Part shown: positions 21,242-62,096 of the stretch, one piece after another
Layout of the letters: every line of letters begins with the position of its first letter
Numbering within the stretch: the first letter of the stretch is position 1
Assembly: GCA_030295235.1 (NCBI GenBank)
Contig: AP026156.1
Location: 186,001 to 250,000, forward strand
Length of the DNA stretch: 64,000 nt
Origin: Fistulifera solaris
Taxonomy: Eukaryota
Direction: 5' to 3'
Translations under genes and position numbers: made by a program
Notes under the pieces: generated by a model
Databases searched by the model: none
Told to the model about the DNA's origin: nothing
Seen by the model: the letters and a program-made list of their open reading frames with translations, nothing else

Positions 21242-23647
21242 AGCCTCTGGATTGTGTTTGGCTCGTTGGCTGTTTCACGTGGGCTGTTGTGAAGCTCTCG
21301 TGAGGTTGTTTGACTTGTGAGTCTTGTTTCGCCAGTCGCCAGTGTCTGCTTGACGTCCGTCGTTGTTCGACTTGTGAGTCTTGTCTCGCTCGTGAGTCGC
21401 TCGCTGTCTGTCTGCCGTCTGCCTACCGACCTGTCTGTCAGCCTACCGTCTGCCCGGCTGTCCGCTCGTCTGTTTGTCTGTCTGTCAGCCGACTACCTGT
21501 CGGTTCGGCTAGGAATCCTTGAGGTTCCAGTCCAAGCAGTGACCCGCTTTACAGGAGTGGTGCGTCCGACAAGTCCTATCAATCTTCTGTTGTTCACCAA
21601 AGCACTGTACCCGCTCAACGAGTAGCCAAGCTACTGCTCGGGGGAGTACCTGTATACCGGCTCAGCGAAGCGCTTGGCGCGATCGTTCCAATTGGCGCTG
21701 TGTAGGGGGCGTCTATGGGGCGGCTTGGGGCTTAGTAATTCGGATTTTCCCGTCTGTGAGGTCGCAGTACTGGGTACACATAGTGCTAAGAATTAACAGT
21801 GGGCTTGAAGACAGGGAGTAAGGTTCCTATTGCAGGTTCTCTTATCTTTCTGTTGTTCGGATTCTGGTTGGGCGGTATCTAATCTACTGGGGCCTTTGTT
21901 CCTTGGTACATCCGCATTCCAACGCTCTGCTGTAAGGGCGTATCGGGACACGTGCTTGGCAGGCGATCACCTACCTTGCCTGAACCAACCAGCGAAGGTA
22001 TAAGGGGGCTGTTGAGGAGTACACCGAGTGCAAAGGGAAGGGTACTTGGTCCTCACTGTCGCTGATTACGGCTCAAGTTCGGAGGTCTTCCCTCGACGCC
22101 AGGGTCGCTACTCCTGGATAGGAGATTGGATTTTCCGGTGTCATACATTTCACCGCCATCTCTGAGCCCTTTTAAGTAGTAGTACACTCAAGGTTCAAGG
22201 TCAAGCTTTCAAGTTCCAAGATGGTTCTCCCTCACGATCCCAAGGACGTATTGCCTTCGATCACGTCCTCGATGTACTTTTGGACTGTGCCAATTCCCCG
22301 GGCCTTAAACTGTCCCTTGTTTCTCGTGGCTACACTACGCTTCCCAAACTGCTCTGTATTGACTATGCTGTTATCGACTGTCTTACCTACTGAAGAGAAA
22401 CCCGACGGTGCCGATGATAGTACTCCAGTCACAGTTCCAGTACCGCAAGCTGATAGGGACATGCTCAAGATGTTTTTCAAGTACATTGCCGACCGTTATC
22501 ATCAGGGTAACCCTATCAATGATGATTGGACGTCGATTACTGCTGAAGAGTTCGATTCCTTCTGTGTACGGGGGAGACATTATTGGTTCACGCGGATACT
22601 CTCCTGCCCATACACCACGTCCTCCTGTGTATACCGGCAGTCCGAAAACCCCTATGTCCCCTGCAGATGCCTTCCGCCGTGGCATCAAGCGCGATCCTTC
22701 ACTCTTTCCTACACTCAAGAATGAAAGTTACAATGACTCTTGGCATCGGTCATTCGTGACTCAAGCTCGCGCCCAAAGTGTCAGTGACTACTTGATGATC
22801 AATGCGTGCCTACTACTGACGATGAGAAGGAACTCTTCGACGAAAAGCAGAAGTACATGTACGCAGTCCTTGAAGCTACTGTCCTTACTGACCAAGGCAA
22901 GGCCATTGTTCGCAAGTACGAGTCTACCTATCGATGCACAACGTTTATGCTGAGTTGAAGCGCCATCACCTACAGTCTACTAACGCGCAAATGGAAGCCG
23001 ATAAGGACATGCTAAAGATGTTTTTCAAGTACGTCGCCGATCGTCACTATCAGGGTAACCCCATCAATGATTGGATGTCAGTCACAGTTGAAGAGTTCGA
23101 TTCCTTTTGTCTACGGGGAGACATTTCAACGCGCAATGGCTGCACTCTTGCAAGCACACCAAGTCCTACTGTGTGTCTTAGCAGTACAAAGCCCACGATG
23201 TCCCCAGCTCATGCCTATCAACACGGCATCAAGCGCGATTCTTCACTCCTTCCTACAGTCAAGAGTGAAAGTCAAAATGACTCGTCACATCTGTCATTCG
23301 TGAATACAGTACACGCTCAACACGGCAGTAGTACACTTAAGGATCCGCAGTACAAGCCTACTACTGACAACAAAAAGGATATCTTCAATGTGAACGAACA
23401 AGTACAAGCGACTACTCTTTGTCCGGCTCACGAGCGTTCGTCTGGTAATGCATCGACTCCACACGACTGATAAGGGTGAAGACATGCAATTAGCTTGTGA
23501 CACGGAAACGGTTAAGGGTTCCATCCCCAATAAGGATGAAGACAATATTTTGGGTTTTTCGTCTAACCTCAACCATACTGGTTCTGGCAGTTCTCACGGT
23601 TTCAATCTGTTCTGTCGCGACCGCATTCCCATGAGTCTCTTCCTCCT

Positions 23648-28907: not shown

Positions 28908-30307
28908 CCTCCTGAGCCCGATCCCGATCCTGACCCTTCAGATCCTGCTGATAAGTTCCTCAATGCACCACAAGACACTGATCCTCCCCAAGAAGCTGAT
29001 TCAACACTTTTGGTCAATGCTGCACAATCCAACAACTTGCACCTTGACCCCTGCGATATTCGACGTATTCTTTCATAGCTCCCGCTGACTAGTGCCAATC
29101 GGACACTGAGTGCAAACGTGCTTATCACGTATTGTGTCTCAATTGGACATACGTCATCCTCACTTGCTTCTTTGGTCGATCGTGGTGAAAAGGGAAGAGT
29201 CGCCCGGTTATGACGTCACGTTCATTGACAAGGTTTTGTGGCATTGTCACATTGGCATTCAAGGCATTGAAAACCACCAAGTGACCGGCCTTGAGATCAT
29301 GACTGTCGCCAACATTGTTCCTACTGAATTACCTCCTGCCGAACCTCCTCCTGTTCTTTTGGTCACTTCACGCACTGTGCCCAAATGTACTTCCGATTTC
29401 TTGCGGTTACGTCTTTATTTTGGCTGGATCAACAATGATGTCAGTATCTTTCTCCGCTTCTACTTAGGGCAGAGAGTACCAGTACTCTATGTGCTGGCAA
29501 TTATTGTCTTCCTTCCGAGTCCCCAGAAGTCATGGGTTACAGTGTCAATATTTCTGAGCATGTTTGCCCCACCCTGTCCTGGGCAATACTTACCGGATCC
29601 TCAGCAAGTAATTGTTCGCTCCCAGGTCCCTCCCTACACTCTGGATGACCCTACTTTGCGCGCTCTGACTGACGGGGAGTGTTCGCATTTGTCCACTCCA
29701 GTTGTACAATCTTGTACATCCGTCCTTGAAGTGGATCCTGATGCTATTGCTGATATCAGTCCTCCCGGCCGCTGTCAGTCCTCAAGTACAGACTGCTACT
29801 TATGGTTCCGAATTTATTGCAGCGAGAACGTGCGTTGAGCAGATCATCGATCTCCGCAATACACTCGCGATATTTGGGAGTACCAGTTCGCGAGAAGGCT
29901 TATATGTTTGGGGATAATGAGTCTGTCGTCAACAGTGCTACCATGGTACACGTAAAGCTACACAAGAGACATACTATGCTCTCTTTTCACCGTGTCTGTG
30001 AGGCTATTGGCGTCAGGAATGGTTGCATTCTTGCATATTCCCGGGGAGATGAATCCAGCTGATATTCTCAGCAAACATTGGGGTTATTCGCAGATATGGG
30101 ATCGTTTGAAGGCGATACTTTTCTGGACTGGAGACACCGCAGAACTGAAGAACTGAAGAGTACCAAGTACTACTTTGGGTTAGAGAGATATTTGTTTAGA
30201 GAGAAATGCATGTGTTAGTGATTAGGATTTAGGAAGAAAATGGAAGACCTTCGAACGAGAATGCGAGTCAGTTATTGCAGCCGCCCGTGCCTTCGAGAAG
30301 ACGGGAG

Positions 30308-31060
30308 TGACAATTTTCTTAGCAAGTTTGAGTCATGTTAGTGACTGATTTTCCATAGTATTTGTGTAGTCTACTACTTATACTACACAGAGACGGCGCA
30401 TCGGTATTGCTATTTAGACTTCGACTGTCTATTTGAAGATAGAGTCACTTGGATACCATTGGGAGATATTTGAAGTTGCAGTTACAGGGATTGGATACCG
30501 TTGAGAGTGCAACGTCGACAATTTTGCAGACGTGGACATGTTTCTTCTCTTGCCACGACTGACTGTCACGTAGACCTTCAGTACATTTCTTACGTGTCGT
30601 AGCCAACCTACGGAAGCCTACGGAGCTATGTTCATTTTCTACAGGAATTCAGTACTTGTTTTCTTTGCCACCTCAGCACAAGTTCCTGAAGATTGGAGAA
30701 AGGTGTGCAATCATTTTCCATTAGAATAGGTCTCACAAAATAAAAATGAATTAGAAATCAACCCATATTTACCGAGTTTACTGAGTCTTCTTTGTGTGGT
30801 GAAATTCTCAAGGTCACAAACCTTGCGAGTCGATCTACATCCTTTGAGTCCAGGCAGGCAGACAGTGAGTAAGTAACAACAAGCGCACTGTGTGGTTGTC
30901 TTTGCTGATCATTGCAATCAAAGAGAGTTTGCGATATCAGTGCTTTCGTTGTCAGTTGATCATCTCATCAAAGAGTGTTGAGTTGGTTGATTGTCGTCTT
31001 TGCGTGAGGATATTCCGCATTCAATTCCGTGAGCTATCTGTGCGCTCGGAATTTCTGTCA
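30308..31060 (+). repeat. 3' LTR of the outer Copia (753 bp)
   Basis: Direct repeat of 20476-21227, preceded by the purine tract GAGAAGACGGGAG. Confidence 0.95.
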
Positions 31061-32295
31061 TGAAAAACCCTCCAGTTTCATAAAGGAGCAGCTTGTATAA
31101 GTGGGCTTGTACGGTGTCCGGAGCGACGCCCTAATGCATCGGCAGCAGTCTGTACCAACTTCTTTAGCTTTTCGTTCCAGCGTGGGTTTTGAAGATGTAC
31201 TTGATCGGCGTTGATCTGTAACGTATCGCGGACAGTTCGGTCCACAATCGTCTCGGCCCCCTTTCCATGCGGAGCTTGTTCAGCAACTTTTTTCAACGCT
31301 GCCACGGTCGTCTCTGTGACTGGCAGCGAGACTACACCAACTCCCTGAACTGTCAGACCTGGTAGAACGGGAAGCTCAGAAGCCAGGCCTCCGGTGCAAG
31401 TCGAACCAGGTGATTCTAAATCATCGAGCAACTCTCTTTGTCCTCAATACGTTCTTGCATAGTAACATTGTCGTTTCCGGTCGCGTCAGTAGCCATGCCA
31501 GCCGTTGCGATTTTGGTAGTAGCGTCTTCACCTTCCATGTTTTCAATTTCGTCTGTGACGGGACAAGGATTAAAGACTATCGTTTCGTAAATGAAGACTG
31601 GCAAATTCACACGTCGCAAATACAGCTCCCTGTAGCATTAATCGTTTTCAACCCAATCGGAGTACTTGCTTATTATGATGGTCTATTTCATTGTTTCACT
31701 CCACGCTTTTCGAGAACATGGATTTTGAGGCACCCCAGAAAAAATGCGCCACGAGGTTTTCCAATGATGATGCGAAAATAAAACACGTGAGAAATAGGTA
31801 CCATGGGCGACTGTCCTCGTCGCACGGGAGGATGCGGGAAATTGGAGAATTAGCGAAAACGCGAAAAAAACTAAGGCTTGTAAGCAAAAATCAGAAAATG
31901 ACAAGAAAGAAAGTTGGGAACCGCAACAAAGTAAAAAGTATGGACATTTATATTATTCGTTCGGTGTTCGGTGAGGAATGACTAAAGTACAGTAGGTCCT
32001 ACAATGAATATCGTAACGTTGTGTTGAAGTTGAGTTAATGACTTATGGGATCTGAAAGACATGCACTAGAGAGTACTTTAATATCATGGCGAACTGCGAG
32101 CGACGAACGACGAGCGGCGATAGTGCTCATTAATATGACACCTCATTACTTTCTGATATAAGCCCAGAGCACTTTGAATACTATCTATTTTCGTGTTTAA
32201 GGAAAGTTAGTACCGGTTTGCTGGTAGGCTTAACAAACCCAACCAAAGTCAACCAAAGTCAACCAAACCCAACCGGACGCAAACCGGTACTCAAC

Positions 32296-32439
32296 TTCAA
32301 ACCGGTACTCACTTAGAAGCTACATGATTTTTGTACCAGGATTTTTCTTGTTTCCGATTTTCTACTGAAAATCAAACCGGAAACAACCGGAAACTACTGA
32401 AGCCAAGCGAAGCCAAGCGAAGTCAACCAAACCCAACCA
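32296..32439 (+). repeat. 144-bp direct repeat, copy 1 (copy 2 at 37415-37548)
   Basis: The copies differ by two substitutions and one 10-bp unit (GCCAAGCGAA). Confidence 0.9.
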
Positions 32440-35400
32440 TGCAGTACACTACATCGTCTTGTACATTCTTCACGTTCTGTCCTTAGAAGGTTAAGGGTCA
32501 CGGGATTCCATTATCGATTCGTTCTCACTTTATTGAGAACTGCGTCCTGCTCATCTTTTCATCGTAGTCTTTAACAAGCTATAATATCTTATTTCCATCA
32601 TTATCATCTTTATGCATTCCTTGTGAGTCAAGTCATTGTGATCACAGGCCTTCGCTCATATCGAATACACCATGGCAGCCAAGAAACTTACGAGTAATAT
32701 TTACTTCAATCCAAAGTATAAGGATGAAGAAAACGCTCAAGAAATCCAATTCAAGTGGGAACTCGAAGAAGTGAAATATCGACATCTATACCAAGCGATT
32801 GACGAAACTTGAATTTACGCCATTCATGAGACATTGCGCTCAAGTGCCTTATTATATCGGTCAAGCGATCGGAAGAGACGGATCGGAAGAGAACGAAAAG
32901 AAAATTGAAACATCGTGCATGCAAGTATTCCCAGGCAGCTTTCTCAAGCCTTTATTTCAGCTTGGATCGAAAGCAACGGAAAAACATTCAAAACGAAGAT
33001 CGAGAACTTCATTAACAAGTTTTACAAGCCGAGCACCAGCTTTAATCTCATCGAAGAGATCCGTAGCAACAAACTTCCTCCTTTTCAAGACGTGAGTCAA
33101 TTCAATATTATAATGGAGGAAGCGAACGAATGGATCAGTCTACTTCCAGGAACGACACCGAAACTTGACGAATCTGCTCTCAAACACGCGATCTACGTTG
33201 CAATGCCCGAATGGTGGCAAAGATCCTTCGACAGAAGCTCGTACGATCTAGCTAGGATCAGCAAAGCAACAGTTTTGGCTTACTTTATCAAACAACAAAA
33301 CATGGCAAAGAAGAATCCTCAAAACACAGACAAGAACAAAGGCAACGATTCCTCTAACAACAAATGGAAGAACAAGAATAGCAACACTAACCAAGGAAAC
33401 AACCAAGGAAACAAGAACAATGGAGGCAGCAACAAGCGCAAGACTTTTAAAGCAGTCGGTGATTGCCGAAAACGCGAATGCCCTCGACAAAAACGGAGTC
33501 AGCCATCATGATTGGAACGATTGCTGGTATAACCGACGCGGAAATAACTACAATCCAAACAAGATCCGCAAGCTAAGCGAAAACAAGAGCAACAATGGCA
33601 AAGCAGCACCTCAAGATCAAGCAAAAGTCGCTCAAGAAGCGCCTTCGAATCCGACAGGAATGATGGCGCCAAAACGACTTGTATCCCAATCAGTTCTATG
33701 GTATGTCATCGAGCTTTGTAACATCTGCGGAATGTCGTCTTCGCAGGGTGAATCCAATGCATCTACTTCTACATCATTCACATCTTTATGCGGCGACATT
33801 TATTATTCCGGAGATCTAGACATTAAATTAATACCAAATTACATGATACAACAGTCGCGAAGGCACGCCCTCGTCCTATTTCTATTATGTCAGTAAAATA
33901 TATTCAAGACCAACAGAATCATCATCCATTGAAAGTATTATTCGATTCAGGATCGGACCATACCATGTTTAATCGAAGAGCCTTACCAAAGGGTGCGACA
34001 CCAAAACTTCGTTCAAGGAAAACGTATTGTCGGTCTTCATGGTGTCGAAACGCACAACAACCAGGTTTTCTTAAAAGACGTTTCGCTACCCGAGTTTTCG
34101 GCCTCTCAACGAGTGCCTGGTCCACTTCCATGTATCGTTTTCGACAACGCACAAACGATCTACGACGTAATCATCGGAAATGACCTAATGACCAAGCTCG
34201 GAATTGACATCCATAGTTCAACAAAGACCGTATCATGGTTCGAACACGAAATACCGTTTAGATCAAGTGACTACTTCGCGCCGAACTATTTCTCAGCACA
34301 GTTTACTTCAATGTCCGATCTCCTCAAAAACAAAAAAGACAATTCATTTGAAGCCTATATCACAGAAGAACAAATTAAGGAGGCAGGATACAAATCAAAA
34401 GAGATCCTACCAGCAAGATATGAAGAAGTCGACACGAATGCAGTCGCACAAAATCAAGCTCATTTAAATGAAACACAAAAAGAACAACTCGCACAACTAC
34501 TATCGAAATACAAGCGTCTCTTTTCAGGCAAACTCGGTTGCTTTCCGGAAAAAGTTCATATCGATATTCAACCTGGAAGCAAGCCCCATTCATGCCGTTA
34601 CTATCCAATATCACCATACAACAGAATTACTTTCAAAGGCGAGCTCGAACACCTTGAAGCTATCGGCGTCCTCTCCAAATTTGGACCGTCCGAATGGCTT
34701 TCACCATCATTTATTATTCCGAAGAAAGACGGTCGAGTCCGATGGATATCAGACTTCCGACAACTCAACAAGGTTATCAGAAGAAAGGTTTACAACATCC
34801 CAATCATTACCGATATCCTCAAGCGACGGAAAGGATACAGATACCTTCTGAAACTCGACATCTCAATGCAATTTTATACTTTCGAACTTGACGAAGAAAG
34901 CAAGAATCTCTGCGTCATTTGTGCAGCCATTTGGAAACTACCGATACAATAGATTACCAATGGGAATATCACAATCTCCAGATATCGCGCAAGAGAAAAT
35001 GGAAAAGATCTTTCGCAACTTCGAAGACGTCGAAGTCTATATCGACGACGTCGGATGCTTTTCGGACTCTTGGGAAGCACATCTCAAACTTCTCGATCGA
35101 GTTCTAACGACACTACAAGACTATAACTTCACGGTCAATCCTTCAAAGTGTGAATGGGGAGTACAAGAAACAGATTGGCTTGGATACTGGTTAACTCCGA
35201 ACGGTCTTAAGCCTTGGAAGAAACGTATTGCACCCATTCTCGCACTCAAAGCTCCTCGAGACATACATCAATTACGAAGCTTTCTCGGAGCGATCAACTT
35301 TTACCGAGACATGTACCCTCGTCGAGCTCATATTCTTGCACCTTTATCAAAAGCGACAGCAATGAAAAGCAACTTCAAATGGACCGAAGAAATGGACATA

Positions 35401-37411
35401 GCGTTCAACGAAATCAAAGCACTACTAGCTCAAGATGCCTTTCTCCGATACCCAGACCATAACAAACCATTTCACATTTATGCCGGCACGGCGAACAAAT
35501 GGGGCGGCCATATTCCAAGACAAAATGCCAGTTGCCTACTATACGAAGAAACTTGACAAAGCGCAACGAAACTATTCCACAGGAGAAAAAGAACTACTAT
35601 CTATTGTCAAACTCCTGCATGAATTTCGCACAATGCTCTCACGGTTGTCCAGAAATCCACGTCTATACTGACCATCGCAATAATGTCTTCGACAACTGCA
35701 CGTCTCAAAGAGTACTACGCTGGAAGACATTTCTGGACGAATACGGTATACACATGCATCATATCAAAGGCGAAGATAATCCTTTAGCCGACGCACTCTC
35801 ACGCTTGCATTTTGATGAAAACATTCTCAACAGGTTCGAACCACAATACAAAAACTCTGCAGAAGACGAAAGTCAATCATTTTATTCAATGGCCATCGGC
35901 GATAACGACCTTAAGTGTTGCTTCGTCAATTTACCACTCAATCAAGTGGCGCCCTTTGTCTTAGATTACAAGAGGCTTCGAGCGGTACAAATGAGGGACG
36001 CCCGTTTGCAATCGCTACGAGAAAAATATCCACAATCATTCTGCGAACAAATGCTCGCACCCCAAGTCTATGTGACATGCTTTATTCCAAAACCAAATGA
36101 ACCGTGGAAGATCTACTTACCAGATGAACTATTACATGAGACGGTGGCATGGTACCACTTCGTACTCGGTCATCTAGGAAGAAGTCGACTATTTGACACA
36201 ATCTCCACACATCTCTACAACTCCCAACTACGAAACAAGATAGATGACTACGTATCAAGATGCGGCGAATGCCAACGCAAGAAACAACTACAACGCGGAT
36301 ACGGTGAACTACCACCCTCGTGAAGCAAATATTCATCCCTGGAGAGACATCTGTGTTGATCTAATAGGACCATGGACTCTTCAAATAGCAGGTCAACAGC
36401 ACAACTTCATCGCCCTTTCGATCATCGATCCGGTAACAAACCTCGCAGAACTCATTCGACTAGATAACAAGCGCGCGATTACGTCAAGCCCTGCAACTAC
36501 ATAACGCATGGCTATCGGAAGTACCCACGGCCACTCTTTTGTACATACGATCAAGGCGGAGAGTTCATCGGATATGGATTTCAAATCGAACTCGAAAAAT
36601 ATGGACTTCACAAGTCGCCTTCGAACAAGAAAACACCAACATCAAACGCGATCTGTGAGCGGATGCATCAATCGGTCGGCAATATTCTCACGAACAATGT
36701 CTACTTTAAATCCTCCGACAGCCTTAGAAACAGGCAAACTCATGGTCGATACCGCTCTTGCCAACACTGTATTTGCACTCAGAGCTTCATGCCATGGAGG
36801 ACTCAAAGCCACACCAGGATCCCTAGTTTTTGGTCGAGACATGATTTTAGATATACCAGTTGTCGCAGATTGGATCACCATTCAACAACACAAACAACAA
36901 CTAATCGACACTCGAACAGTCACAGCTAACCAAAAGCGATTCCCTTTCAACTACAGACCAGGAATGGAAGTCCTCAAACTCGTCTACCAACCATCAAAAC
37001 TACAAGACAGAGCGATTGGACCCTACAAAGTGGTCGAAGTTTTTCAAAACGGAAATCTTACAATCCAACTCAACGATACAGTTCAAGAACATATCAATAT
37101 TCGAAGAGTGAAACCTTATCTACGTTAATATTCTATCCAACAAGATTACTCTTCAAGCAATCTTGGGAGGCAGAATGCAGTACACTACATCGTCTTGTAC
37201 ATTCTTCACGTTCTGTCCTTAGAAGGTTAAGGGTCACGGGATTCCATTATCGATTCCATTCATGAATCGTTCTCACTTTATTGAGAACTGCGTCCTGCTC
37301 ATCTTTTCATCGTAGTCTTTAACAAGCTATAATATCTTATTTCCAGAAGAATAATAAAATCCTAAATATTTATTCATTATCATCTTTATGCATTCCTTGT
37401 GAGTCAAGTCA
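32440..37411 (+). mobile_element. Ty3/Gypsy LTR retrotransposon
   Basis: LTRs at 32440-32635 (196 bp) and 37176-37411 (236 bp), TG...CA; PPT GGGAGGCAGAA; domain order PR-RT-RH-IN. Confidence 0.93.
32672..37128 (+). CDS. Gypsy gag-pol (frameshifted in this assembly)
   Basis: Protease VLFDSGS, RT '[10 protein letters not shown]', 'LDISMQFY', YIDD; RNase H '[10 protein letters not shown]', 'YTDH', 'ADALSR'; integrase HHCC zinc finger, '[11 protein letters not shown]' and a C-terminal GPY motif. Confidence 0.9.
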
Positions 37412-47915: not shown

Positions 47916-50900
47916 ATGTTCTCATCGTTGAGTACGTCGTTATCGAATCTCTACAATAATGCGACTTTCTCTATCAATCTATCACCGCAAGCCATTCTGG
48001 CCTCCTATCTGTCGGCATCACTCGCAGAGTTCTTACAAGTGGACAGCCATCTCATTGAAACGAGTCTTTTGACCGATCAGCACGTAACACTGCGTCAGAT
48101 CAAGCTCAAACCGAGGACGGTTCGAAGCAATGGTCATGCTTCGACAATCACTTTGACGGGGACCATTCAGAAAATTGAATTTCGTTGGGAGTGGAGTACA
48201 CAAAGCTATATTTCGAATGTGCGTTTGAAGGTTGAGGGAGTTCATTTACAACTTTCGAAACAGGATGCTACTACGGAAGAAGTGATAATCGAAGCCGAGG
48301 AGAATGCTAATCTTAGCTCAATACACGAAACGAATACAGAGACGGATTGGAAAGCCGTGTACATGCAACAGATCGTAGATCATCTTTCTGTCTCTGTAAC
48401 GGATGTTCAGATAACTATTGATCTTGATGACAACGCACTGATTGTGTTGGGTTCTGGCATTGATTTAACGACGAAAGAGCAGCAGAAACAGGAGTACATC
48501 GAGGATTCAACGACCTTAATGCAGCAAATGTGCCTCAAGTCATTATCGGCGTACTTTGAGCGACCAAACGGAGAACAAATTCAACTCTTGGACGCATTTG
48601 GATACTCGGCATCGGTGCATAGGGTGTCGGGTCGTCGATTTGTTGATGGAATCATGAATGGCTTAATTATTACTGGAAGTCCTGAAGAGTCTATTCAATG
48701 GTATTTTGGCTCACTGCAAGTAGAAGGTTTACTTCAACTTCAACGACTTTTGCGTATTGTCGAACCGGATATTGACATGAGCTTACCAGACGCTGCCAGT
48801 AGTGACCGTGACAAGTTCAGCATCTTTGAGCTTCCGCTGCCCTCAATGTCGATTCTTATGGACGAAAGCATCAAGTTACAATTTACACAAGGCGCTTTGC
48901 AATACCGAACTGACGGCTCAGAGTGTATCCTCCAGCTTGGGAGAATGTCGGCGGAACTGAAAGAAGAACCGTTGGCGGTTCTGAATAATCTCACCATTGA
49001 TGTGATCAATAGCAGCGTTCTTCTGATCACGCCATTGGAAGGCGACAGCGATACTATGAATGTGAAAATTTCATTAAGGAAAGACATGTTGGAGGCCTAC
49101 AATCGCGTCTACGTTATTTACAGCGAAGTACTGCAAATGAATAAGAATGAGTCGGAAGCAAGTATTAGCGACCCTGTCGATGATTCAAATAATTTTTATT
49201 GGTCGCTTGACATTCAAGGCAATACGAAGCTCGAAATGATCAGCGAGCTTGGATGGATACAGTGGACCATGGACAACCTCTCTGCAAGTGCAAAGTACGG
49301 AGCAAAGATACCATTTGACGCAAGCTGGAAGTGTGCTCACCTTTCATCATCGCATGGGATTATTGTTGATACCTCAATGATGGAGCTCATAAATGATACA
49401 TTTCATTTTGCAGGAAGCGTGGATATCATTGTAGCGTCGATGGATGCAGCTACGCAGTTTTCGGAGTTTGTGATGGATGCCTCTTCTAAATACCCAGGCG
49501 ACAAGACACAATCCACCGGTTTGTCGTGTAACATTGTTTTACCGAAGGTCAATGTTGTTGTTCTAGACTCAGACGGCGGTATGCAAATGGAGTGCGAAAA
49601 TATTGAGGTCGATGGCGATTTTTTAACAATACGCGGGCGGAGCATTCAGATCAGCACAACTGCAAACGGGTCTTCGTCAAACTATTTTTCGTGTCAAAAC
49701 GTTAATGCCACTTTCAAGCGGATAGGAGCTACAGCTACAAGTGGTCAGACCGTGAAAGTTGAAATTAGGAATATGGGTGATGTGCGGTACCTTAGTTCTG
49801 TTCATGTCCCGTCACTATTTGCCGAGGCCACAATCGATCCATCAAACATTAATTTAATTTCCGACTTAAGGCTGAATGTTGCGGAGGCGGAACTTACTGC
49901 AGATTTTAGATCGAAAGACTGGTCAAAGCAGATTGAAAGCAACGCCCAATCAGACCCCATGCTGCTACCAGATGCAAACGTATCGAAAATCAACCTCACT
50001 TTGCACTTTATTGGTGGCGGCATCACACTCGAAAACGCAAAAATTAGCTTGCCGGAGTTCCAGGGTAATGAATCTACACGATCTGACACGCTTTCATCTC
50101 ACTACGTAATGCAGGTCAAAAAACGCTTGCCATTCTTATTCACAAAAGCAAATGTAGCTGGCGTTAATGTTGGCGACTCTCTGAGTTCCGCCGTTGCTAC
50201 CATGGCAGTCCAGTCCTCACTTGTTGGAACGTTGGTTGGAGTAGTGGGAAAAGACGGGGTCGGGGCTGCGATTACAGCAGGAAAAGCGACGAGGGGTGCT
50301 ACAGAGAATGAAAGATACCATTTCGGAGACTTTTCTAAAGGTATTGCCGCTTCTGCTAAGAATGCTTCTTTATCGAGCACAGCGGCTGCGTCATCAACCT
50401 ATGCTTCTGAAAATCGAGTCCGGCTATCTTCAGCAGCTGGATCTGGAGTGGGAATGGTTGCTGGTATGGCTTTGGCTGGACCAGCAGGCTTAATTGCGGG
50501 ATCCATACTTGCAGGAAAGGCTGTCGGCAACGCAGTCGAAAGACGATTTGGCGATCCGAAGAGAATGCCAACAACGAGTGCTATTGAGCAGGAAGCAGTA
50601 GATACCTCACAAGGGCCCCTGATTCCGGCAACCAAGTCCCCTGCTACCGCTGCACCTCAACATCCAGCAAATCACTCAAATGCTCAATTATTTGACCCCC
50701 ATGGATTCGATCGAGGATCGAACACAGATACTGATGCCACAGTCGACGTGGCCAATTCTACGCTTGACAATCATTCATTGCCTTCCTCAGGCGGTGTAAG
50801 TGAAACTAATGCAATCAACACAAGTGAATCTGTTGCCGCTATCCCTGGTGAATCCTCAACTACTCAAACCAACAGTGGTGGAAATTACAAGTTTGGCAAC

Positions 50901-50999
50901 ATAACGCGTGGTATAATTGCGCGTGGTAAAGCAGCACGGGGCGCTAACAAAACCGAGGGTTACAAGTTCGGTGATTTCACACGTGGTTTCCTTGGATAA
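47916..50999 (+). CDS. ~1030-aa hypothetical protein with a Chorein_N/VPS13-like N-terminus and C-terminal YxFGD repeats
   Basis: Long uninterrupted ORF. N-terminal helix followed by a 'VTLRQIKLK..GTIQKIEFRWEW..VRLKVEGVHL' strand pattern; beta-rich body; Gly/Ala zipper near the C-terminus. Confidence 0.7.
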   Translation: MFSSLSTSLSNLYNNATFSINLSPQAILASYLSASLAEFLQVDSHLIETSLLTDQHVTLRQIKLKPRTVRSNGHASTITLTGTIQKIEFRWEWSTQSYISNVRLKVEGVHLQLSKQDATTEEVIIEAEENANLSSIHETNTETDWKAVYMQQIVDHLSVSVTDVQITIDLDDNALIVLGSGIDLTTKEQQKQEYIEDSTTLMQQMCLKSLSAYFERPNGEQIQLLDAFGYSASVHRVSGRRFVDGIMNGLIITGSPEESIQWYFGSLQVEGLLQLQRLLRIVEPDIDMSLPDAASSDRDKFSIFELPLPSMSILMDESIKLQFTQGALQYRTDGSECILQLGRMSAELKEEPLAVLNNLTIDVINSSVLLITPLEGDSDTMNVKISLRKDMLEAYNRVYVIYSEVLQMNKNESEASISDPVDDSNNFYWSLDIQGNTKLEMISELGWIQWTMDNLSASAKYGAKIPFDASWKCAHLSSSHGIIVDTSMMELINDTFHFAGSVDIIVASMDAATQFSEFVMDASSKYPGDKTQSTGLSCNIVLPKVNVVVLDSDGGMQMECENIEVDGDFLTIRGRSIQISTTANGSSSNYFSCQNVNATFKRIGATATSGQTVKVEIRNMGDVRYLSSVHVPSLFAEATIDPSNINLISDLRLNVAEAELTADFRSKDWSKQIESNAQSDPMLLPDANVSKINLTLHFIGGGITLENAKISLPEFQGNESTRSDTLSSHYVMQVKKRLPFLFTKANVAGVNVGDSLSSAVATMAVQSSLVGTLVGVVGKDGVGAAITAGKATRGATENERYHFGDFSKGIAASAKNASLSSTAAASSTYASENRVRLSSAAGSGVGMVAGMALAGPAGLIAGSILAGKAVGNAVERRFGDPKRMPTTSAIEQEAVDTSQGPLIPATKSPATAAPQHPANHSNAQLFDPHGFDRGSNTDTDATVDVANSTLDNHSLPSSGGVSETNAINTSESVAAIPGESSTTQTNSGGNYKFGNITRGIIARGKAARGANKTEGYKFGDFTRGFLG

Positions 51000-54571: not shown

Positions 54572-56211
54572 TTACACAGTGGCTTGTCCCAAACGCTTGC
54601 GCTCATCTATTTTTGACAAGGTATTATTTGTAGGAGACGCTTCTATGCCAACTTCTCCACGATTTCGAGCTGCCAATTCTTCCAAGCTCATTCCGCTGGT
54701 TTCGGGCAGCTGTGTGTAGTAATACGGCAAGGATACAAAGCCGATCATGGCATACAGGAAAAGAAACCGGATCCGCCCAGCGCTTCGTTCAGCGAAACGG
54801 CGGTAAGTGCTACCAACCCACTGGTGCTTCTATTCACAGCAGCACAAAGGGTCATACCCGTAGCTCGCTCACTCAAACCGAGCATTTCACTTGCTACCAA
54901 GAACGTAAAAGGTCCGAGGCCCAACGAAAAACTCGCCATGACAGCACAAAGCAAGAGGACGACCAAGACAGGGCTCCACGAAAAGAAGAATGCCGTGCCT
55001 AGTAAAAAAGTAGAAATGCAAAGCGAAAGAGCACTGCCCAACATTAAAGGCCGGCGTCCAATCCGATCCACAACTCTCATGGCAATCAACTCCGGAGTCA
55101 ATTTACACAGCCCGACAAAACAATTACCCAGCAAACGCTGTGTAGGTGATGCCAGGCCCGCCTGTTCCAAAAAGTCCGCACTGTAATAAAGCACTGCTTC
55201 GGTTCCGGTGACTTGTTGCCAAAAGCCCAATCCCAAGGCCAACTTCATTCCTACCGAAAGATGTGCTACATTCGAAACTATATCTCGAAAACCTGGCGTA
55301 GCTGTGGACTCATTGTCGAGCTCATCTTGAATGGAAGCAACCGTCGAAGCCGCATCTTCCGATCCCAGTTGCTCCAGTACTTGATGAGCTTCGTCCGGCT
55401 GATTTTTCATGACCAGATAGCGCGGCGATTCTGGCAAGAGCGCCAAATTATACAGCACAAGAACAGGTAACAGAATTCCCATTCCCAGCATGACGCGCCA
55501 TTTCCAATCATCCGGAATGGGTGACAACTCCACCAAGAAGCCAACAATGTATCCCATGAGAATGCCACCATTGATGGCGACGTCGAAGACGGTATTCAAA
55601 GACCCTCGTTGATCGGTGGGTGCAACTTCACTCAAAAAGACTGGCGCTACGACAAACGAAACTCCGACTCCCAACCCAGTGACAATTCTCCCCAGCAACA
55701 GAACCCAATAATCCGGAGCGAGCGCCATAAGCAGTGTCCCGGCAATAAACAACCACCCACACAATTGAATGGTAGGTTTCCGGCCTTGCCCGTTCGCGAA
55801 ATTTCCTCCCAATAGAGCCCCCGCGGCGGCTACAAAATTCAAACTTCCCATGGCGAATTCTTTTTGTACCGAACTTAAGCTCAATTGCGCTTGTAAGGGC
55901 TGAATTGCGGCGGCCATGATACCGACATCGTAGCCCAGCGTGGCGGCGGTGGCTGCCGCAATGATAACTAAGCGTGTCAAGTCTCGATTCAAGCCGCTTG
56001 TTGTATAACTCGTTGTTGTTGTAACAGTCGATTCCGTATGATAGAATTCGCGTGCTGTTTTGGTCGGTATTGCTTTATTTTCTTTGAATAAACCATCGCC
56101 GAGAGGCAATTTCTTCTCCGAAAGGGGCGGAGGAGAAGGCGAATGAGGGGTGTTTGTGGCTTCCTTGACATCTTGCCCTAATAAATTGTGTTTTTCACTT
56201 TTCGATGACAT
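54572..56211 (-). CDS. MFS sugar porter (polyol/monosaccharide transporter-like); 1-nt frameshift near 54760
   Basis: 'LGYDVG', 'GRKP', 'GRIVTGLGVG', 'SEVAP..RG', 'WRVMLG', 'PESPRYL', 'QQVTG', 'DRIGRRPL'. After the frameshift it continues to 'LPETSGMSLEE'. Confidence 0.9.
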
Positions 56212-56714
56212 GTTATCGAACGATTTGAGCTTGCTTTTTGCTAATAAATCAATTAGACAGCAGTTTGTACTGTCAGGCAAAGTAAAGAATAGACACTCTT
56301 GAAAAGAGAAACGCAAGTTGGTTTCACTTTTTGTTTCCGGAAGGTCACATTCCTCTATTATTTACTTTCTGTCGCTTTTGAGTCTCCTTGGCTTCTCTTT
56401 CTTTTCACGCGTATCTATTTATTTGCCATGGTCCACTTTGATTTCTATCGAAGAAAAGTTTCCGCGTGCTATATTTTTCTCCTCCGAACATCTTCAGTCC
56501 TGTAAAAGTAGTCACGTGTCGCACTACGCAGCTTCATCGTCTGCAAGCGACAATAAGCACACATAGTACCAGGTAACTATACTCCTTACTAGCGAAGGAA
56601 GCTTCAAGTAACTAGATGGATTTATTATCATTATCTTCTTTAAAACGCTTATCCGTTTTCACCAGCCAAGGTCCGACAGCCATGCAGAGCAATAGAGACC
56701 TGCATACACTTTTT

Positions 56715-57974
56715 TTACGGTATGACGCACTGCGAGAAATACGCAGTCTTCTTCTCGCAGACCAGTCCGGCGCAGCATGCTTTTGAATGCAATTCTGGAA
56801 GCGAGGAACGCAGGTCGTACCAACAGGAGCAGTGACCGGGGCTTTCACAGGAGAGACAACGGGAGGCTTGACAGGGGAAGGAACTGGGACTTTCACAGGG
56901 GTCGCAACGGGAGCCTTCACAGGCGCAGTGACCGGTGCCTTTACAGGAGCGGACACTTGAGGACTACCGGGGCCATCCAACACCGAAACTATTGCAAAAT
57001 ATGACAAATCTTGTTAGAGAGACGACACGTCCATCTCACACCTCTATGAATATGTATTTCATGTACTTACTTTCGGCACAATTCCAGAACTGCTCCGGTT
57101 TTCCGAGCCCGTCTTGGGAATAAGGAAGCGCGCATTGCGCCCTTTTCAAATCGCTACGGACAGGATCGTACGAAACGTTGGTGAAATACTCTTTATATCC
57201 GGGAGGGAGACAGCTGCAAAGGGACAAGAGTCGCGAAGCAACAAAGAAACGTTGAGCACAAAGGTGAAATTAAATCCCCAATTTGAAGACAGTATCTGTA
57301 CTTACGAGTTGGACGTCACGTAACGCCACTTTTGCAACAAAAGATGGTGGTGAATAGTCGTGATGAATCGAAACAATGTGTGAGAAAATCGACGAAACCC
57401 CAAAACCGGGCTTGATTCGATAAAAAATTCTCACCTGAAGAAGCACTTGGTCTCCTACCAAGTTGTCCGGCAAACGAAACTTCATGGTATAAGTTTCGTA
57501 ACGCTCAGCGAGGTATCCTCGATCTGGGTACTTCGGATCTTTGGGCATGTCGTAATCCACATCCTCCACAAACTCCAAAGGATACGAATCCAAACAAGCT
57601 TGCGTCGACTGACGACCGTTGGGGCAAGCGCGAAGCTCAACGTGTCCCCAGTGATACGCCCAAACACCCGTACTCACTGTAATGACTTGTCCGCGCTGAT
57701 ACGTGGCTTGCGGCTTCCACGGCATCGGTTTCCCGGTCGAGTCGACCCATGCATCGTAATCTTTTTCGTCAACATAACCGCACACGCCGTTGTTGCGATT
57801 CAAGCACTGCCAACAGTACTCTTTCACAGGGACACCCGACTTCTCGCCATTTGTACCTTCCTGACGAGCCACCTCGTTACGGCTGCGCGGCAAGAGGAGA
57901 CTGCCGTGCGACTCGACGCTGCTAGGCATCCAAGTCATCAGCACAAAAGCGATGGAAGTGAGAGAGCGAAACAT
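56715..57974 (-). CDS. Secreted lytic polysaccharide monooxygenase (AA10/AA15-like) with Pro-rich linker and CBM1-like Cys module; 4 exons
   Basis: The signal peptide is cleaved before His1 (VES|HGSLLLPRSRN); 'AYHWGH', 'LLQ|WRYVTSNS|C', 'EQFWNCAE'. Introns 57329-57434, 57214-57305 and 56989-57070; PVKA repeats; CCAGLVCEKKTAYFSQC after a frameshift. Confidence 0.82.
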
Positions 57975-58915
57975 GGTTGTATTCTCGTTTTTGTATATCT
58001 TGAGAGTTGCAAATTGTGAGAGTGAACCTTGTTGAACCTTTCAATGTCGGCCGGTCCTGGGAAATGAAGTTGACGCATTCGAGAGGAATTTGACATGGCA
58101 AATAAATCGCCTTCCTCTAAAGAACAGACGCTTTAACAGGGTCGGACTTTATCGGACTCCTTTGTACATAGCGTTTATTTGAAGCGGCGACAAGAATGTA
58201 GAAACCCTTTAATCCATGATACCTATAGAGGCACATTTGCCGTGATTTCCGTTGTACAGGAATCTTTAACGTATTTAGCGAGTTGTCAAACCCTTGTTGG
58301 CTTTATTCGATTCAGCGGACCAAAGAATCCATCACCCATTAGATATTTGTATCAGGCGTAATTGCGGCAAAGATAATATAAGCTCAAACAGAAAAGCAGA
58401 ACGGGCTTATGAAGACCAAATTTGCGGGCACTGATAGTGCAGTCACCAGCCGATAACATGGGATAGTCAGATTAATCCATTTGCATCAGCGATCAAAGAC
58501 AGATAAACAAACGATTCGTTTCGTCATTATGAAGCTAATAATATATATTCCCTGTCTTTGAAAGCAAGAGATGAATACGTTATGAAAAGGCAGGCGATGC
58601 ACTTGGAAAGCACCGAAGGACGGTTCAGCGATCGGTACCGGTACTCACATACTATTCCGAAAACCAGTAACACATTTCTCACAAATTTACGGGAGTCGCA
58701 CAGCCAATAAAAACCGAACTACTGAGTAACAACTATCATCAGTCACACCGGTGAAAGGCAGCTTTGGCAGTATTAGTTAACGGGCCCGCAATTGTCGTTC
58801 AAAATAGCAGACTAATCTAGTAACACTGATCATTAATATGTCATAGCTTTCCTAAAGATTAAATTTGATGACTTTTTCACATTCAACATTACAAGGAGAC
58901 GCCGATAATTAGTTT

Positions 58916-60535
58916 TTAAGCAATCACACCGGGCCGTGTACTGCTGTACGCTCCCAAAGTAGCTTCAATGCCCCTTGCTTCAATGAGATGCATAGCTTTG
59001 GTAAATGCTTTCTTCATCAACGGGTGCTGTCCGGTCTCACCGTAGATATCCGTCATATCGAGCCAGCATTGAGGATTCTTCTTGGCGGCCAACGCGGTTT
59101 GGTGCAACCGATCCCACTGGGGATCATGAGGAGCCAAAATCGAGCCCGCTTCGGTGGTGCCTTGACAGTATCGACACCACATGGCACTCACAATGGCCAA
59201 ACCATCCACACTGCGGCCCGCTTCCAAATTGTCCTTCAAAACAGGGATCACAAACTTGGGCTGTCGACTGCTGCCATCGTACGCGTTGCGATGAATCGTA
59301 TCGTTCATGGTGGGATTCGAGAAGCGTCCGGCAATAACTTTCCAGTACTCTGCCAAGTTCGTTTCGGGTACGGGCCCAACCGTCGGAATAATCTCGTTCA
59401 CTTCGAGTGCATCCAAGAAAGCCCGAATCGGCGCGTGTTCCATGGCATCGTGCACATACTTCAAACCCAACAGAGCACTGGGATACACCAGACTGGCGTG
59501 TCCACCATTCAAAACGCGAATTTTCATATTTTCAAACGGATGTACGTCTTCCACAAATTGCACTCCGACTTGATCCAAATCGGGTCGTCCGTTCGAGAAC
59601 TTGTCTTCCAACACCCACTGTCGGAAGGGCTCACAAAAGACGGGAAATGCATCTTCGACACCGAACTGGTCCATCAGATAGTCGCGCTCGAGATCGGACG
59701 TTGCGGGTGTGATACGGTCTACCATACTGTTGGGAAACTGAACATTCTCTTCGATCCAGTCCGCCATGTACGGATCCGTCAGGCGTGCCATACCGAGCGT
59801 CACTTCTTTGCAAACATGTCCGTTTTCCGGGACATTGTCACACGACATGATCGTAAAAGGAGCTACTGCCGACTCTTTTCGTTTCTGTAAAGCTTGTATC
59901 ATGATTCCAAAGATGGTGGAAGGATGATCCGGATTTTCGATATCTTTCACAATGTGATGGTTATTCGGATCGAACTTTCCTGTGTTGGGGTTCAAAAGTA
60001 TCCACTTTCGGTGACCGTCAAACTAGCGATTTTGATATTGGGATTCAAAAGAGCTCGTTTGAGAGGCGCATGCGTGTGAAGGTCGACGGGACAAAAATCC
60101 ACCATACTCCCAATCACCCGTGCTTCAGCCGTATCTCCATCGCGTTCTACCAGTACTTGCAACCAGTCTTGCGATTCCAGCATGTCGCGTTTGTCCACAT
60201 CAAACGACATGACACCTCCACCCAAAATGCCCCAATTGTGCTGCGACGCATCCTTGTCGAGCAAATCGTCCATGTACGTCGCCATGTGCGCACGGTGAAA
60301 GTTACCGAGTCCGACCTGTGAAGAGAAAGAAATAAAGAAAGGAGAGAGAGAGTCCGTGAAAGGATGGAGCGCGCGCGAACGACGCACTCGTTCGTTGCAA
60401 ATAACTTACGTGTAAGATTCCTGGAGTAATGTTCGCACGATTGTACGAAGGGATCCGAATCGAGCTACTCAAGGATTTCAAAGCAGCATCGGAAAGACGC
60501 CAAGTCGAAGAGCGTTGTAATTGAACGGCGGCCAT
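58916..60535 (-). CDS. Mannitol 2-dehydrogenase family (polyol-specific long-chain dehydrogenase); intron 60316-60409, 1-nt frameshift near 60000
   Basis: 'GILH|VGLGNFHRAH', 'SLTVTESGY', 'MSCDN', 'FPNSMVDRITP', 'CEPFRQWVLED', catalytic 'KIRVLNGGH', 'RFSNP'. Confidence 0.93.
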
Positions 60536-61262
60536 TTTCTCCTTCAAAATGTGCGTTGGTCGAAAACAAAAATCTGCAGCAACGAAATGCCAAGCAAAAA
60601 CCAGTCGAGGCGTGAATTTATGAATGAAGATCAAAGAGACTCGAGTCAGAAAAAGCGAATGGTTGTCGTTTACATCGGCAAAACAAAAACAAAGGCAAGA
60701 TTCATTCCTTCGTCCGATCGACCGAACGGACAGAATTCGAACGCCATTTCCTTGCGTCTCTTAGAACTCACGTTTCATGTTCGTTTCTCCGAAACTCAGA
60801 TGGCTTAATTGTTGATTCTTGTTCTTGTGTTCTCTTTTTTGAAGGGTTTTCCCTTTCGACACACCTTCCCTTTCAATGAGCTTCGGAAAAATGTTGTGCG
60901 ATGCAAAAAGTGAACCCCCGAATTCTTATCTTTTCGCCGGACTGGAACACGTCACTGTGGCATAGAGTGTACGTGACAAGATCGGTCGGACATTTTTATA
61001 GCTAGAGTGGGAGAAAGACATGTCTCGTCCAGGGAAATGATCCTTTCTACAAGTAGTTTTTAGCAGACAAACCATTCCACTGAAACATATTGAGTGTAAG
61101 TTGTTAGTGAACTTTGCTTAAAAGTATCGCTAACGAGATTGTCTACGACTCCGTATTTACGTACTTTTGGGTGACCGACATCAAAGCATCGATTGAGTCG
61201 GTCCAACTAGATTTCTAGATTTTCTGGAACTAGTATTTGCGCAGGAACTACGGCTTCCAATG

Positions 61263-62096
61263 CTATGATTCCCGCTTTTCTACATCCTTCTTCTTATCTC
61301 GACCCAGCAGACTCGATATTTTGCGTTCAAACGAACTGACCGTCATTCCTCCCACGACCAACGGCACCCACAACATGGAGTACGGCAACAATCCATCGCG
61401 CAACAAATGCTCGGAAATCCATCGCGTCAGTGAACTATTCGCCATGGTCGTCCAATGCCACCACGCAGTTCCATTGATACTTCCCAAAACCAGACCGACC
61501 CCAATTTGTTCCCACGTATGAAAGGCTGTAATGCGGACGCGATAATACAAACTCATTGCTATATACAGCAACAAAGGAACCGCCGTAATGGGAAATTGAC
61601 AGGCAGTAAAGCAACCAATGAATCCCAAACTCATGGCGTGAGAGGATGGCATGCCGTGGTCGTTGGGCATAACAATATCGCTGGTGACGGATGTTGCATC
61701 GGCTGTGATGGGACGCTCTTGTCGCAAGAGTCGTTTGAGTATTTTTGACAAAATTCCATTCGAAACGGAACCCAAAAACAAAGAAACCGTCCAAGCGTTT
61801 CGAAAATAAACAATGGCACAAAAGACGGAACCGCCGACGAACAAAGAAGTGGTCGATCCGACGAATCGAATGACTTGTGTCATAGTATCATCTGTAATAG
61901 TAGTAGTAGTGCGGATATCATCGTCGAAAGGAGACGCCGTTCTGGTTGTAACAACAACCGCCAGTTTCCGAACGGATGCTCGGTGATGTAATGAAGTGGT
62001 GGCTGTCGTTGTCGGCATCATCATCACTCGAAAGGCCTCAATGGTCGGAAGAGCGGCAGAAACAATAACCAATAGGAATGCTACAGCCCGGAACAT
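61263..62096 (-). CDS. PAP2-family lipid phosphate phosphatase, probably plastid-targeted
   Basis: Motifs KRLLRQERP, MPSSH and RVRITAFHT. Signal peptide ending IEA|F followed by a Thr-rich transit-like region. Confidence 0.88.
   Translation of the reverse strand: MFRAVAFLLVIVSAALPTIEAFRVMMMPTTTATTSLHHRASVRKLAVVVTTRTASPFDDDIRTTTTITDDTMTQVIRFVGSTTSLFVGGSVFCAIVYFRNAWTVSLFLGSVSNGILSKILKRLLRQERPITADATSVTSDIVMPNDHGMPSSHAMSLGFIGCFTACQFPITAVPLLLYIAMSLYYRVRITAFHTWEQIGVGLVLGSINGTAWWHWTTMANSSLTRWISEHLLRDGLLPYSMLWVPLVVGGMTVSSFERKISSLLGRDKKKDVEKRES

What the first reader, a model, noticed from the sequence alone, without database searches (positions are those of the whole stretch)
54572..60535. Co-oriented transporter, LPMO and mannitol dehydrogenase: candidate eukaryotic carbohydrate-utilisation cluster
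Seen: three adjacent minus-strand genes encode a sugar-porter MFS, a secreted His-brace LPMO with a carbohydrate-binding-like tail, and a mannitol 2-dehydrogenase family enzyme. Known: yeast pairs mannitol dehydrogenases with polyol transporters (DSF1-HXT13, MAN2-HXT17), and mannitol is the main soluble carbon of brown algae. Inference: this is a small cluster, similar to bacterial polysaccharide utilisation loci, for attacking macroalgal or detrital material and importing and oxidising polyols, i.e. a mixotrophy/heterotrophy module in a diatom.
Basis: partly seen in the sequence, partly recalled or inferred. Interest (0 to 1): 0.7.

Follow-up and report, generated by a model that had tools for sequence, protein, structure and literature searches.

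The report
Diatom polyol transporter-dehydrogenase gene pair
Three real neighbouring diatom genes: a sugar-type transporter and a mannitol-dehydrogenase-family enzyme that likely form a conserved sugar-alcohol pair, probably working at the vacuole rather than feeding on seaweed, with a predicted chitin-cutting enzyme between them that is likely an unrelated neighbour.

Summary
The three minus-strand genes are real, and their apparent frameshifts are assembly errors. They match Fistulifera solaris GAX18220-18222 and are repeated on the homeologous chromosome. The PUL-like reading is not supported. The LPMO is AA15 with an axial Phe and belongs to a young family scattered over at least 7 locus pairs. 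21 of 61 long relatives carry chitin domains, none an algal-glycan domain, and the genome has chitin synthases. The scan noted an AA15 paralogue of this genome before. The transporter and dehydrogenase may be a real pair: three other diatom-like homologue pairs share exact contig length and source (3 seen, 0.09 expected). This is indirect, and 0 of 14 fetched loci show the linkage. An N-terminal acidic dileucine signal in 17 of 47 transporter relatives (1.7 expected) points to the vacuole, not uptake from seawater. Substrate and co-expression are untested. Verdict: a modest lead, not a polysaccharide-utilisation locus.

The parts
54572..56211 (-). Single-exon sugar-porter MFS transporter, 546 aa (P0256, F. 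solaris GAX18220); one base missing after 54758 is an assembly error
56179..56196 (-). Acidic dileucine motif ([DE]xxxL[LI], residues 6-11) in the transporter's N-terminal tail; predicted vacuole/endosome sorting signal
   Evidence: motif function in diatoms as cited in PMC11085791
56715..57974 (-). AA15-type LPMO, 326 aa (P0242, GAX18221); exons 57974-57435, 57328-57306, 57213-57071, 56988-56715; His23, Ala106, His108, Phe230
56715..56820 (-). C-terminal six-cysteine knottin module, CBM1-like, after a Pro-rich linker; one base missing after 56780 is an assembly error
58833..58833 (-). Poly(A) tail on one contig of run X3, about 80 bases after the dehydrogenase stop: the dehydrogenase mRNA ends before the LPMO gene
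   Evidence: table 7 (one contig)
58916..60778 (-). Mannitol 2-dehydrogenase-type long-chain polyol dehydrogenase (P0262, GAX18222, 508 aa from the ATG at 60535); introns 60409-60316 and 60771-60574; one base missing after 59993 is an assembly error
60772..60778 (-). Seven-base first coding exon that would add 15 N-terminal residues missing from the database protein
   Evidence: splice joint in 2 of 4 runs; ATG, donor and acceptor conserved in the homeolog

Best explanation
The transporter and the dehydrogenase likely form a two-gene polyol module kept together in some pennate diatoms, and the LPMO between them is likely an unrelated, later arrival. Inferred mechanism: the transporter is a proton-coupled hexitol carrier sorted by its dileucine signal to the vacuole or endosome membrane, where it would move mannitol (or a related polyol) between the lumen and the cytosol; the NAD-dependent dehydrogenase would interconvert mannitol and fructose, linking that pool to central carbon and redox metabolism. 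The AA15 enzyme is predicted to be secreted and to oxidise crystalline chitin, most likely the cell's own. Shown: gene models, families, catalytic motifs, adjacency in both homeologs, LPMO dispersal, motif enrichment. Inferred: linkage in other genera, substrate, localisation, direction of flux.
For: Linkage: of 83 dehydrogenase and 54 transporter homologues on contigs of 3,300 bases or more, 3 pairs share exact longest-contig length and source (9,598; 10,836; 15,244); 0.09 expected, 1 of 5,000 jitter runs reached 3; restricted to 27 diatom-clade x 47 rows, 0.03 expected. All three dehydrogenases fall in the diatom-like clade, the three transporters in one subclade (support 0.79) of the group that holds Fistulifera, and they are different proteins (54-60% and 67-73% identical to each other). 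Transporter: D210, N214, E338, R461 in 87-93 of 93 eukaryotic rows against Q, T, N, W in 17 of 17 bacterial-type rows; nearest Atlas clusters are plant, one named polyol/monosaccharide transporter. Sorting motif: 24 of 60 N-tails (2.1 expected), 17 of 47 after de-replication (1.7 expected); controls 1 of 46 C-tails and 3 of 50 dehydrogenase N-termini. Dehydrogenase: best solved match P. fluorescens M2DH, KxxxxNxxH present, below the UxuB, DalD and UxaB cut-offs; 3 of 3 bacterial relatives opened sit beside sugar ABC genes, one with L-iditol dehydrogenase and PfkB kinase. LPMO: nested among own-genome paralogues (22 rows, support 0.996); no transporter or dehydrogenase in 8 of 8 paralogue loci; chitin domains on 21 of 61 relatives; at least 4 chitin-synthase pairs.
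Against: The three linked contigs were never seen: the link rests on equal lengths. Three further exact matches under 3,300 bases are too short to hold both genes, so coincidences do occur. Only 3 of 12 diatom-clade dehydrogenases on contigs of 8 kb or more have a match, and added cluster members gave none. 0 of 14 fetched transporter loci carry a dehydrogenase. The window's dehydrogenase does not group with the three linked ones (unresolved base). Retained linkage may be neutral. The plant polyol-transporter residue pattern is recalled and could not be checked; bacterial porters score almost as high in the Atlas (0.98 against 0.99), and the F. solaris record is named a galactose/hexose transporter. 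Dileucine motifs can also drive endocytosis of plasma-membrane carriers (recalled), and 30 of 47 relatives lack it. No mannitol data for this organism were found, and the dehydrogenase's extra N-terminus may target it away from the cytosol.
Confidence: 0.42

Rival explanations
1. Three functionally unrelated neighbours. Any shared linkage in other diatoms is chance or neutral microsynteny; the transporter is a vacuolar sugar carrier with no tie to mannitol.
For: 0 of 14 fetched loci linked; only 3 of 12 long diatom-clade contigs match; the second dehydrogenase pair (C13/C14) has no transporter within the roughly 18 kb fetched; the finding was picked after the fact, and the crude chance of proximity is similar for porter and LPMO (0.002-0.006); separate mRNA end.
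Against: Three exact length-and-source matches against 0.03-0.09 expected, all in the right clades; the transporter has a non-hexose pocket pattern and polyol-transporter neighbours by name.
Confidence: 0.3
2. The transporter-dehydrogenase pair imports external mannitol or sorbitol at the plasma membrane and oxidises it, as yeast HXT13-DSF1 does; the LPMO is a passenger.
For: Same linkage evidence; yeast precedent and subtelomeric position (PMC4800717; locus about 51-57 kb and 39-45 kb from telomere repeats); bacterial relatives sit in uptake operons; mannitol uptake is shown in coccolithophores with no carrier known (PMC9298845).
Against: Dileucine enrichment near the N-terminus, with forms close to the known diatom vacuolar motif; most P. 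tricornutum hexose transporters are not predicted at the cell membrane (PMC12868695).
Confidence: 0.21
3. One reading: a PUL-like three-gene module that breaks down macroalgal or detrital polysaccharide and imports and oxidises the released polyols.
For: All three genes adjacent in both homeologs and on a further contig of a close relative (38,245 bases); LPMO secreted with a CBM1-like tail, and AA15-CBM1 fusions may target cellulose (PMC5823890).
Against: Axial Phe and chitin-type fusions, 0 of 61 relatives with alginate, fucoidan or laminarin domains; young dispersed family whose other members lack such neighbours; LPMO products are oxidised oligosaccharides, not hexitols (established knowledge); no glycoside hydrolase or lyase among the flanking ORFs scanned; no LPMO contig-length match with either partner among 15 close hits.
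Confidence: 0.07

Closest known systems
S. cerevisiae HXT13-DSF1(MAN1) and HXT17-YNR073C(MAN2) pairs (PMC4800717)
   Same: A sugar-porter gene beside a long-chain mannitol dehydrogenase gene, near a chromosome end.
   Different: The transporter is not Hxt-type: it has Thr at the position of Hxt13 E333 and Glu at the next, normally Asn (against passages); it keeps the TM1 Asp and carries a dileucine tail; an LPMO gene intervenes; function untested.
CAZy AA15: TdAA15A (PDB 5MSZ) and chitin-specific TdAA15B (PMC5823890)
   Same: Best sequence, profile and fold match; His brace, Ala two residues before the second His, axial aromatic; family already reported in Bacillariophyceae, with CBM1 fusions.
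   Different: About 23% identity; axial Phe (as TdAA15B) rather than Tyr; member of a lineage-restricted expansion with a knottin tail.
Pseudomonas fluorescens M2DH (PDB 1LJ8) and alphaproteobacterial mannitol dehydrogenases in polyol ABC operons
   Same: Two-domain polyol-specific long-chain dehydrogenase, KxxxxNxxH, Arg at the position of Pf R373; about 50-57% identity to alphaproteobacterial proteins.
   Different: Intron-containing eukaryotic gene in a diatom-wide clade that includes Epithemia and Extubocellulus, so not a recent transfer; Arg replaces Pf K381; partner is an MFS, not an ABC system.
Plant polyol/monosaccharide transporters (PMT/PLT, e.g. AgMaT1)
   Same: Nearest Atlas clusters; automatic names of two homologues; acidic TM5 and TM7 residues and TM11 Asn-Arg resemble them (recalled).
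   Different: No characterised plant sequence could be aligned here; plant PMTs are mostly plasma-membrane proteins (recalled).
Brown algal M1PDH3/M1Pase1 linked pair (bioRxiv 10.1101/2024.02.19.579948)
   Same: Precedent for conserved linkage of mannitol genes in stramenopiles, once with an intervening gene.
   Different: That pair makes mannitol; this one couples a transporter with M2DH.

Membership tests
AA15 LPMO | His as first residue after a signal peptide, second His, Ala two residues before it | tested here: met
   His23, Ala106, His108; His108 in 76 of 78 aligned rows; signal peptide judged by eye and by the Pfam model starting at residue 23
AA15 LPMO | Closer in sequence and fold to TdAA15A than to AA10, AA11 or AA13 | tested here: met
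   Profile hit 5MSZ E 9e-19, the only LPMO at E under 0.01; Foldseek 5MSZ E 7e-10 against 9e-6 (AA13) and 1e-4 (AA10), model pLDDT 85
AA15 LPMO | Copper-dependent oxidative cleavage of chitin or cellulose | not testable with these tools
   Axial Phe230 (68 of 78 rows) predicts chitin by PMC5823890; no assay
CBM1 | Pfam PF00734 match | tested here: not met
   No CBM_1 hit at E up to 1; only a sub-threshold knottin (Toxin_12) hit
CBM1 | Cystine-knot fold with a flat aromatic face, after a Pro/Thr linker | tested here: inconclusive
   Knottin fold predicted (pLDDT 86); matches to fungal cellobiose dehydrogenases and 4BMF rank below or among spider knottins, none at E under 0.001; nearest Atlas cluster is LPMO plus CBM_1 (0.90)
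Polyol-specific long-chain dehydrogenase, M2DH type | Rossmann glycine motif, MVDRITP and catalytic KxxxxNxxH; both Pfam domains | tested here: met
   motifs as given in PMC4022671
Polyol-specific long-chain dehydrogenase, M2DH type | Not fructuronate reductase, arabinitol 4-dehydrogenase, tagaturonate reductase or M1PDH | tested here: met
   346/603, 310/600, 141/359 bits and under 80 for all M1PDH models; NCBIfam returned no M2DH model to pass
Polyol-specific long-chain dehydrogenase, M2DH type | NAD-dependent mannitol-fructose activity | not testable with these tools
   no assay
Sugar porter family (TC 2.A.1.1) | TIGR00879 above cut-off | tested here: met
   269.9 against 237.8 bits
Plant PMT/PLT polyol transporters | Groups with characterised PMT/PLT proteins and shares their pocket residues | tested here: inconclusive
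   Atlas neighbours are plant, one named PMT1, but bacterial porters score 0.98; residue pattern recalled, supplement search empty; no plant sequence in the tree
Polysaccharide utilisation locus | Degrading enzymes, transporter and catabolic enzyme act on one glycan and its products | tested here: not met
   Chitin-type LPMO beside a hexitol enzyme; no hydrolase or lyase among flanking ORFs scanned
Polysaccharide utilisation locus | Whole cluster conserved beyond the genus | tested here: inconclusive
   Three genes together only in Fistulifera-like records; 0 of 14 loci; the three inferred contigs could not be opened
Polysaccharide utilisation locus | Co-induction by the substrate | not testable with these tools
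   Only assembled contigs of one study were available
Yeast HXT-MAN type pair | Transporter gene co-localised with mannitol dehydrogenase gene | tested here: met
   2.7 kb apart in both homeologs
Yeast HXT-MAN type pair | Hxt-type polyol site (Glu at Hxt13 333) | tested here: not met
   Thr337 at that position; the Hxt13 register is taken from residue numbers in PMC4800717

The most novel reading that the evidence does not exclude
Raphid pennate diatoms keep a conserved two-gene mannitol module, a vacuolar proton/polyol symporter of an uncharacterised stramenopile family beside a mannitol 2-dehydrogenase, revealing an overlooked polyol store in diatoms and giving a first candidate for an algal mannitol carrier.
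Probability: 0.3. Interest if true: 0.6.

Novelty: new member of a known kind. Interest (0 to 1): 0.33.

Why it matters
How mannitol crosses algal membranes is stated to be unclear (PMC9298845), and diatom mannitol metabolism is little described (PMC4022671, as of 2014). A linked transporter gives one concrete protein to test, with relatives in Nannochloropsis, Pylaiella and Fibrocapsa. If it is vacuolar it bears on carbon storage and osmotic balance in an oil-producing diatom; if it is at the cell surface, on mixotrophy. The eukaryotic PUL idea, which would have been the surprising result, is not supported.

Tried and rejected
Pseudogenes: rejected, the three breaks are corrected by public contigs; the homeolog has its own different one-base errors. 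Recent horizontal transfer of the dehydrogenase: rejected, broad diatom clade with introns. Operon-like transcript: a poly(A) end lies before the LPMO (one contig). Toxin reading of the tail: rejected, it is a terminal module after a linker on LPMO paralogues and on a subtilase; spider hits reflect the shared knottin fold. Transporter scans of prokaryote genomes and viral contigs, and a dehydrogenase scan of viral contigs, found nothing. Whole records behind L016-L019 and L028 are not held. Expression: no run is on record as RNA; X1 covers intergenic DNA, X2-X4 look spliced. Their contigs cover the transporter and dehydrogenase in 3 of 3 runs and only pieces of the LPMO, mainly in X3, with no LPMO splice joint; contigs cannot rank expression, so this is not used. 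Member look-ups added no new length match. Length matches at 1,764, 2,260 and 2,767 were dropped as too short for two genes. A plant-motif search in one supplement of PMC7317338 was empty; PMC3260733 is not held. The bacterial promoter scan is irrelevant here. Earlier-finding searches by sequence, words and relatives gave nothing relevant.
Full report
Observation. The window is G000:C45:186001-250000 of a 51.7 Mb, 62-contig genome. Between 54572 and 60778 lie three minus-strand genes: a sugar porter, an LPMO and a mannitol-dehydrogenase-family gene. They match consecutive Fistulifera solaris records GAX18220, 18221 and 18222, with a second set GAX21742, 21741, 21740. The same order stands on contig C46 at 83-90% DNA identity, as expected of an allodiploid. 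Each gene has a one-base break in the window; contigs of public runs supply the base at 54758, 56780 and 59993. The joined LPMO exons equal the first 304 residues of P0242. Spliced contigs add a 198-base intron and a seven-base first exon to the dehydrogenase, conserved in the homeolog. One contig ends in poly(A) at 58833, before the LPMO. Both contigs end in TTAGGG repeats, 51-57 kb and 39-45 kb from the locus.

The LPMO. Its best solved match by sequence, profile and fold is TdAA15A. It has His23, Ala106, His108 and Phe230. PMC5823890 (passages) reports AA15 in Bacillariophyceae, CBM1 and CBM14 fusions, and an axial Phe as the chitin-type state. I scanned 61 of the 150 listed relatives, choosing mostly the longer ones: 21 carry GH18, CBM18 or CBM14 domains, 3 GH8, 2 an expansin-like domain, 1 GH9, none an alginate, fucoidan or laminarin domain. 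The genome has at least four chitin-synthase pairs and at least seven dispersed LPMO locus pairs. In a tree of 158 exon-1 sequences the window's enzyme is nested in a long-branch clade of 22 rows (support 0.996) made of own-genome paralogues and close hits. None of 8 paralogue loci fetched holds a transporter or dehydrogenase homologue. The tail is a six-cysteine knottin, CBM1-like but without a Pfam CBM_1 match; it recurs on paralogues and on a subtilase. I infer a young duplicate that landed here.

The dehydrogenase. It carries the catalytic motifs of polyol-specific long-chain dehydrogenases (motifs as in PMC4022671, passages), matches P. fluorescens M2DH best and falls below the cut-offs for UxuB, DalD, UxaB and M1PDH. 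Its homologues split into a diatom-like clade (support 1.0), with Epithemia and Extubocellulus, and an alphaproteobacterial clade. Three plasmid hits opened, of 478 records, lie beside sugar ABC genes. The genome shows only two such pairs (a lower bound); the other has no transporter nearby. PfkB kinases are present elsewhere.

The transporter. It passes the sugar-porter cut-off and has no close paralogue beyond the homeolog (next 32%). Four pocket positions (D210, N214, E338, R461) are near-invariant in 93 eukaryotic rows and differ in all 17 bacterial-type rows; Diplonema, Nannochloropsis, Pylaiella and Fibrocapsa homologues share them. That this is the plant polyol-transporter pattern is recalled, not verified. 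The Atlas puts plant clusters first, one named polyol/monosaccharide transporter, with bacterial porters just behind. It is not of the yeast Hxt polyol type (PMC4800717, passages). An acidic dileucine motif stands at residues 6-11; it occurs in 24 of 60 N-tails (5 of 65 rows had no usable tail; 2.1 expected) and 17 of 47 after de-replication (1.7 expected), 14 of them within the first 11 residues; YxxPhi motifs are also enriched, 16 of 47 against 7.5. PMC11085791 (passages) cites such a motif as a diatom vacuole signal; PMC12868695 (passages) says 7 of 8 P. tricornutum hexose transporters are not predicted at the cell membrane. Schreiber 2017 itself was not read.

Linkage. Direct test: 14 metagenome loci around transporter homologues hold no dehydrogenase or LPMO. 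Only five have 8 kb or more on a side, two of these are one protein, and the four placed in the tree belong to the Cylindrotheca-containing group, not the Fistulifera group. Indirect test: among 120 dehydrogenase and 100 transporter hits, six pairs share an exact longest-contig length. Three under 3,300 bases cannot hold both genes and were dropped. The other three also share the source; 0.09 are expected, 0.03 when restricted to diatom clades. These dehydrogenases are all diatom-clade and the transporters form one subclade. Against: only 3 of 12 long diatom-clade contigs match, extra members add none, and the window's dehydrogenase does not group with the three. No LPMO match was found among 15 close hits. 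The contigs were not seen, so this is a lead.

Mechanism. Most likely the transporter is a proton-coupled hexitol carrier (TM1 Asp95 in 88 of 93 rows; its role as the proton site is recalled) on the vacuole or endosome, and the dehydrogenase interconverts mannitol and fructose. Mannitol is reported on the storage glucans of one diatom and of Nannochloropsis (PMC8541152, passages), a possible source; this step is speculation. Uptake from outside, as in yeast, remains possible. The LPMO most likely remodels chitin and has no chemical link to the pair.

Known or new. All three proteins are in public databases under the expected names. Seven literature searches (listings and abstract starts only) showed no paper on this linkage; subscription papers and supplements were not seen. 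Linked transporter-dehydrogenase pairs are known in yeast, and a linked mannitol gene pair in brown algae (bioRxiv 10.1101/2024.02.19.579948, passages). PMC3901260, PMC9298845 and PMC13323096 were seen as passages. Verdict: new member of a known kind, interest 0.33.

Noticed in passing
window 60574-60778: Unannotated seven-base first exon and 198-base intron of the dehydrogenase, adding 15 residues; about 55 bases around the ATG and donor are nearly identical in the homeolog while the intron diverges. Some relatives have N-terminal extensions that look like organelle signals by eye (P0012, P0050, P0057).
   Followed up: partly
window 61263-62093: Co-oriented PAP2-family phosphatase gene upstream of the dehydrogenase, with what looks like a signal peptide followed by Phe (plastid-type, by eye); conserved in the homeolog; no link to mannitol seen.
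   Followed up: partly
L032:7252-8349: Subtilase gene 2 kb from an LPMO paralogue ends in the same six-cysteine knottin module, so the module is mobile in this genome.
   Followed up: partly
window 22000-37200: Fragmented LTR-retrotransposon frames: a copia-like set at about 24.2-28.7 kb and a gypsy-like set at about 32.9-37.1 kb (read by eye).
   Followed up: no
window 10200-19700: Several similar broken frames, some resembling 2-oxoglutarate/Fe oxygenases by eye, repeated in tandem.
   Followed up: no
window 47916-50996: A 1,027-residue frame with no Pfam match, conserved at 84-88% in the homeolog.
   Followed up: no
G000:C3:570481-578846 and C4:519605-527992: Two chitin-synthase genes lie head to head about 5-6 kb apart on both homeologs.
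   Followed up: no
P0003, P0005, P0012, P0022: Signs of tandem dehydrogenase copies in other diatoms: P0012 and P0022 share a 7,359-base contig length, and P0003 and P0005 begin with what looks like the C-terminal end of another copy.
   Followed up: no
L014:8941-9999: A xylose-isomerase-like frame (by eye) about 7 kb from the second dehydrogenase paralogue on C14.
   Followed up: no
L038 and L039: Two other sugar porters of this genome (C20, C35) have a similar acidic/Arg pocket pattern; C3 and C36 have the hexose-like pattern.
   Followed up: partly
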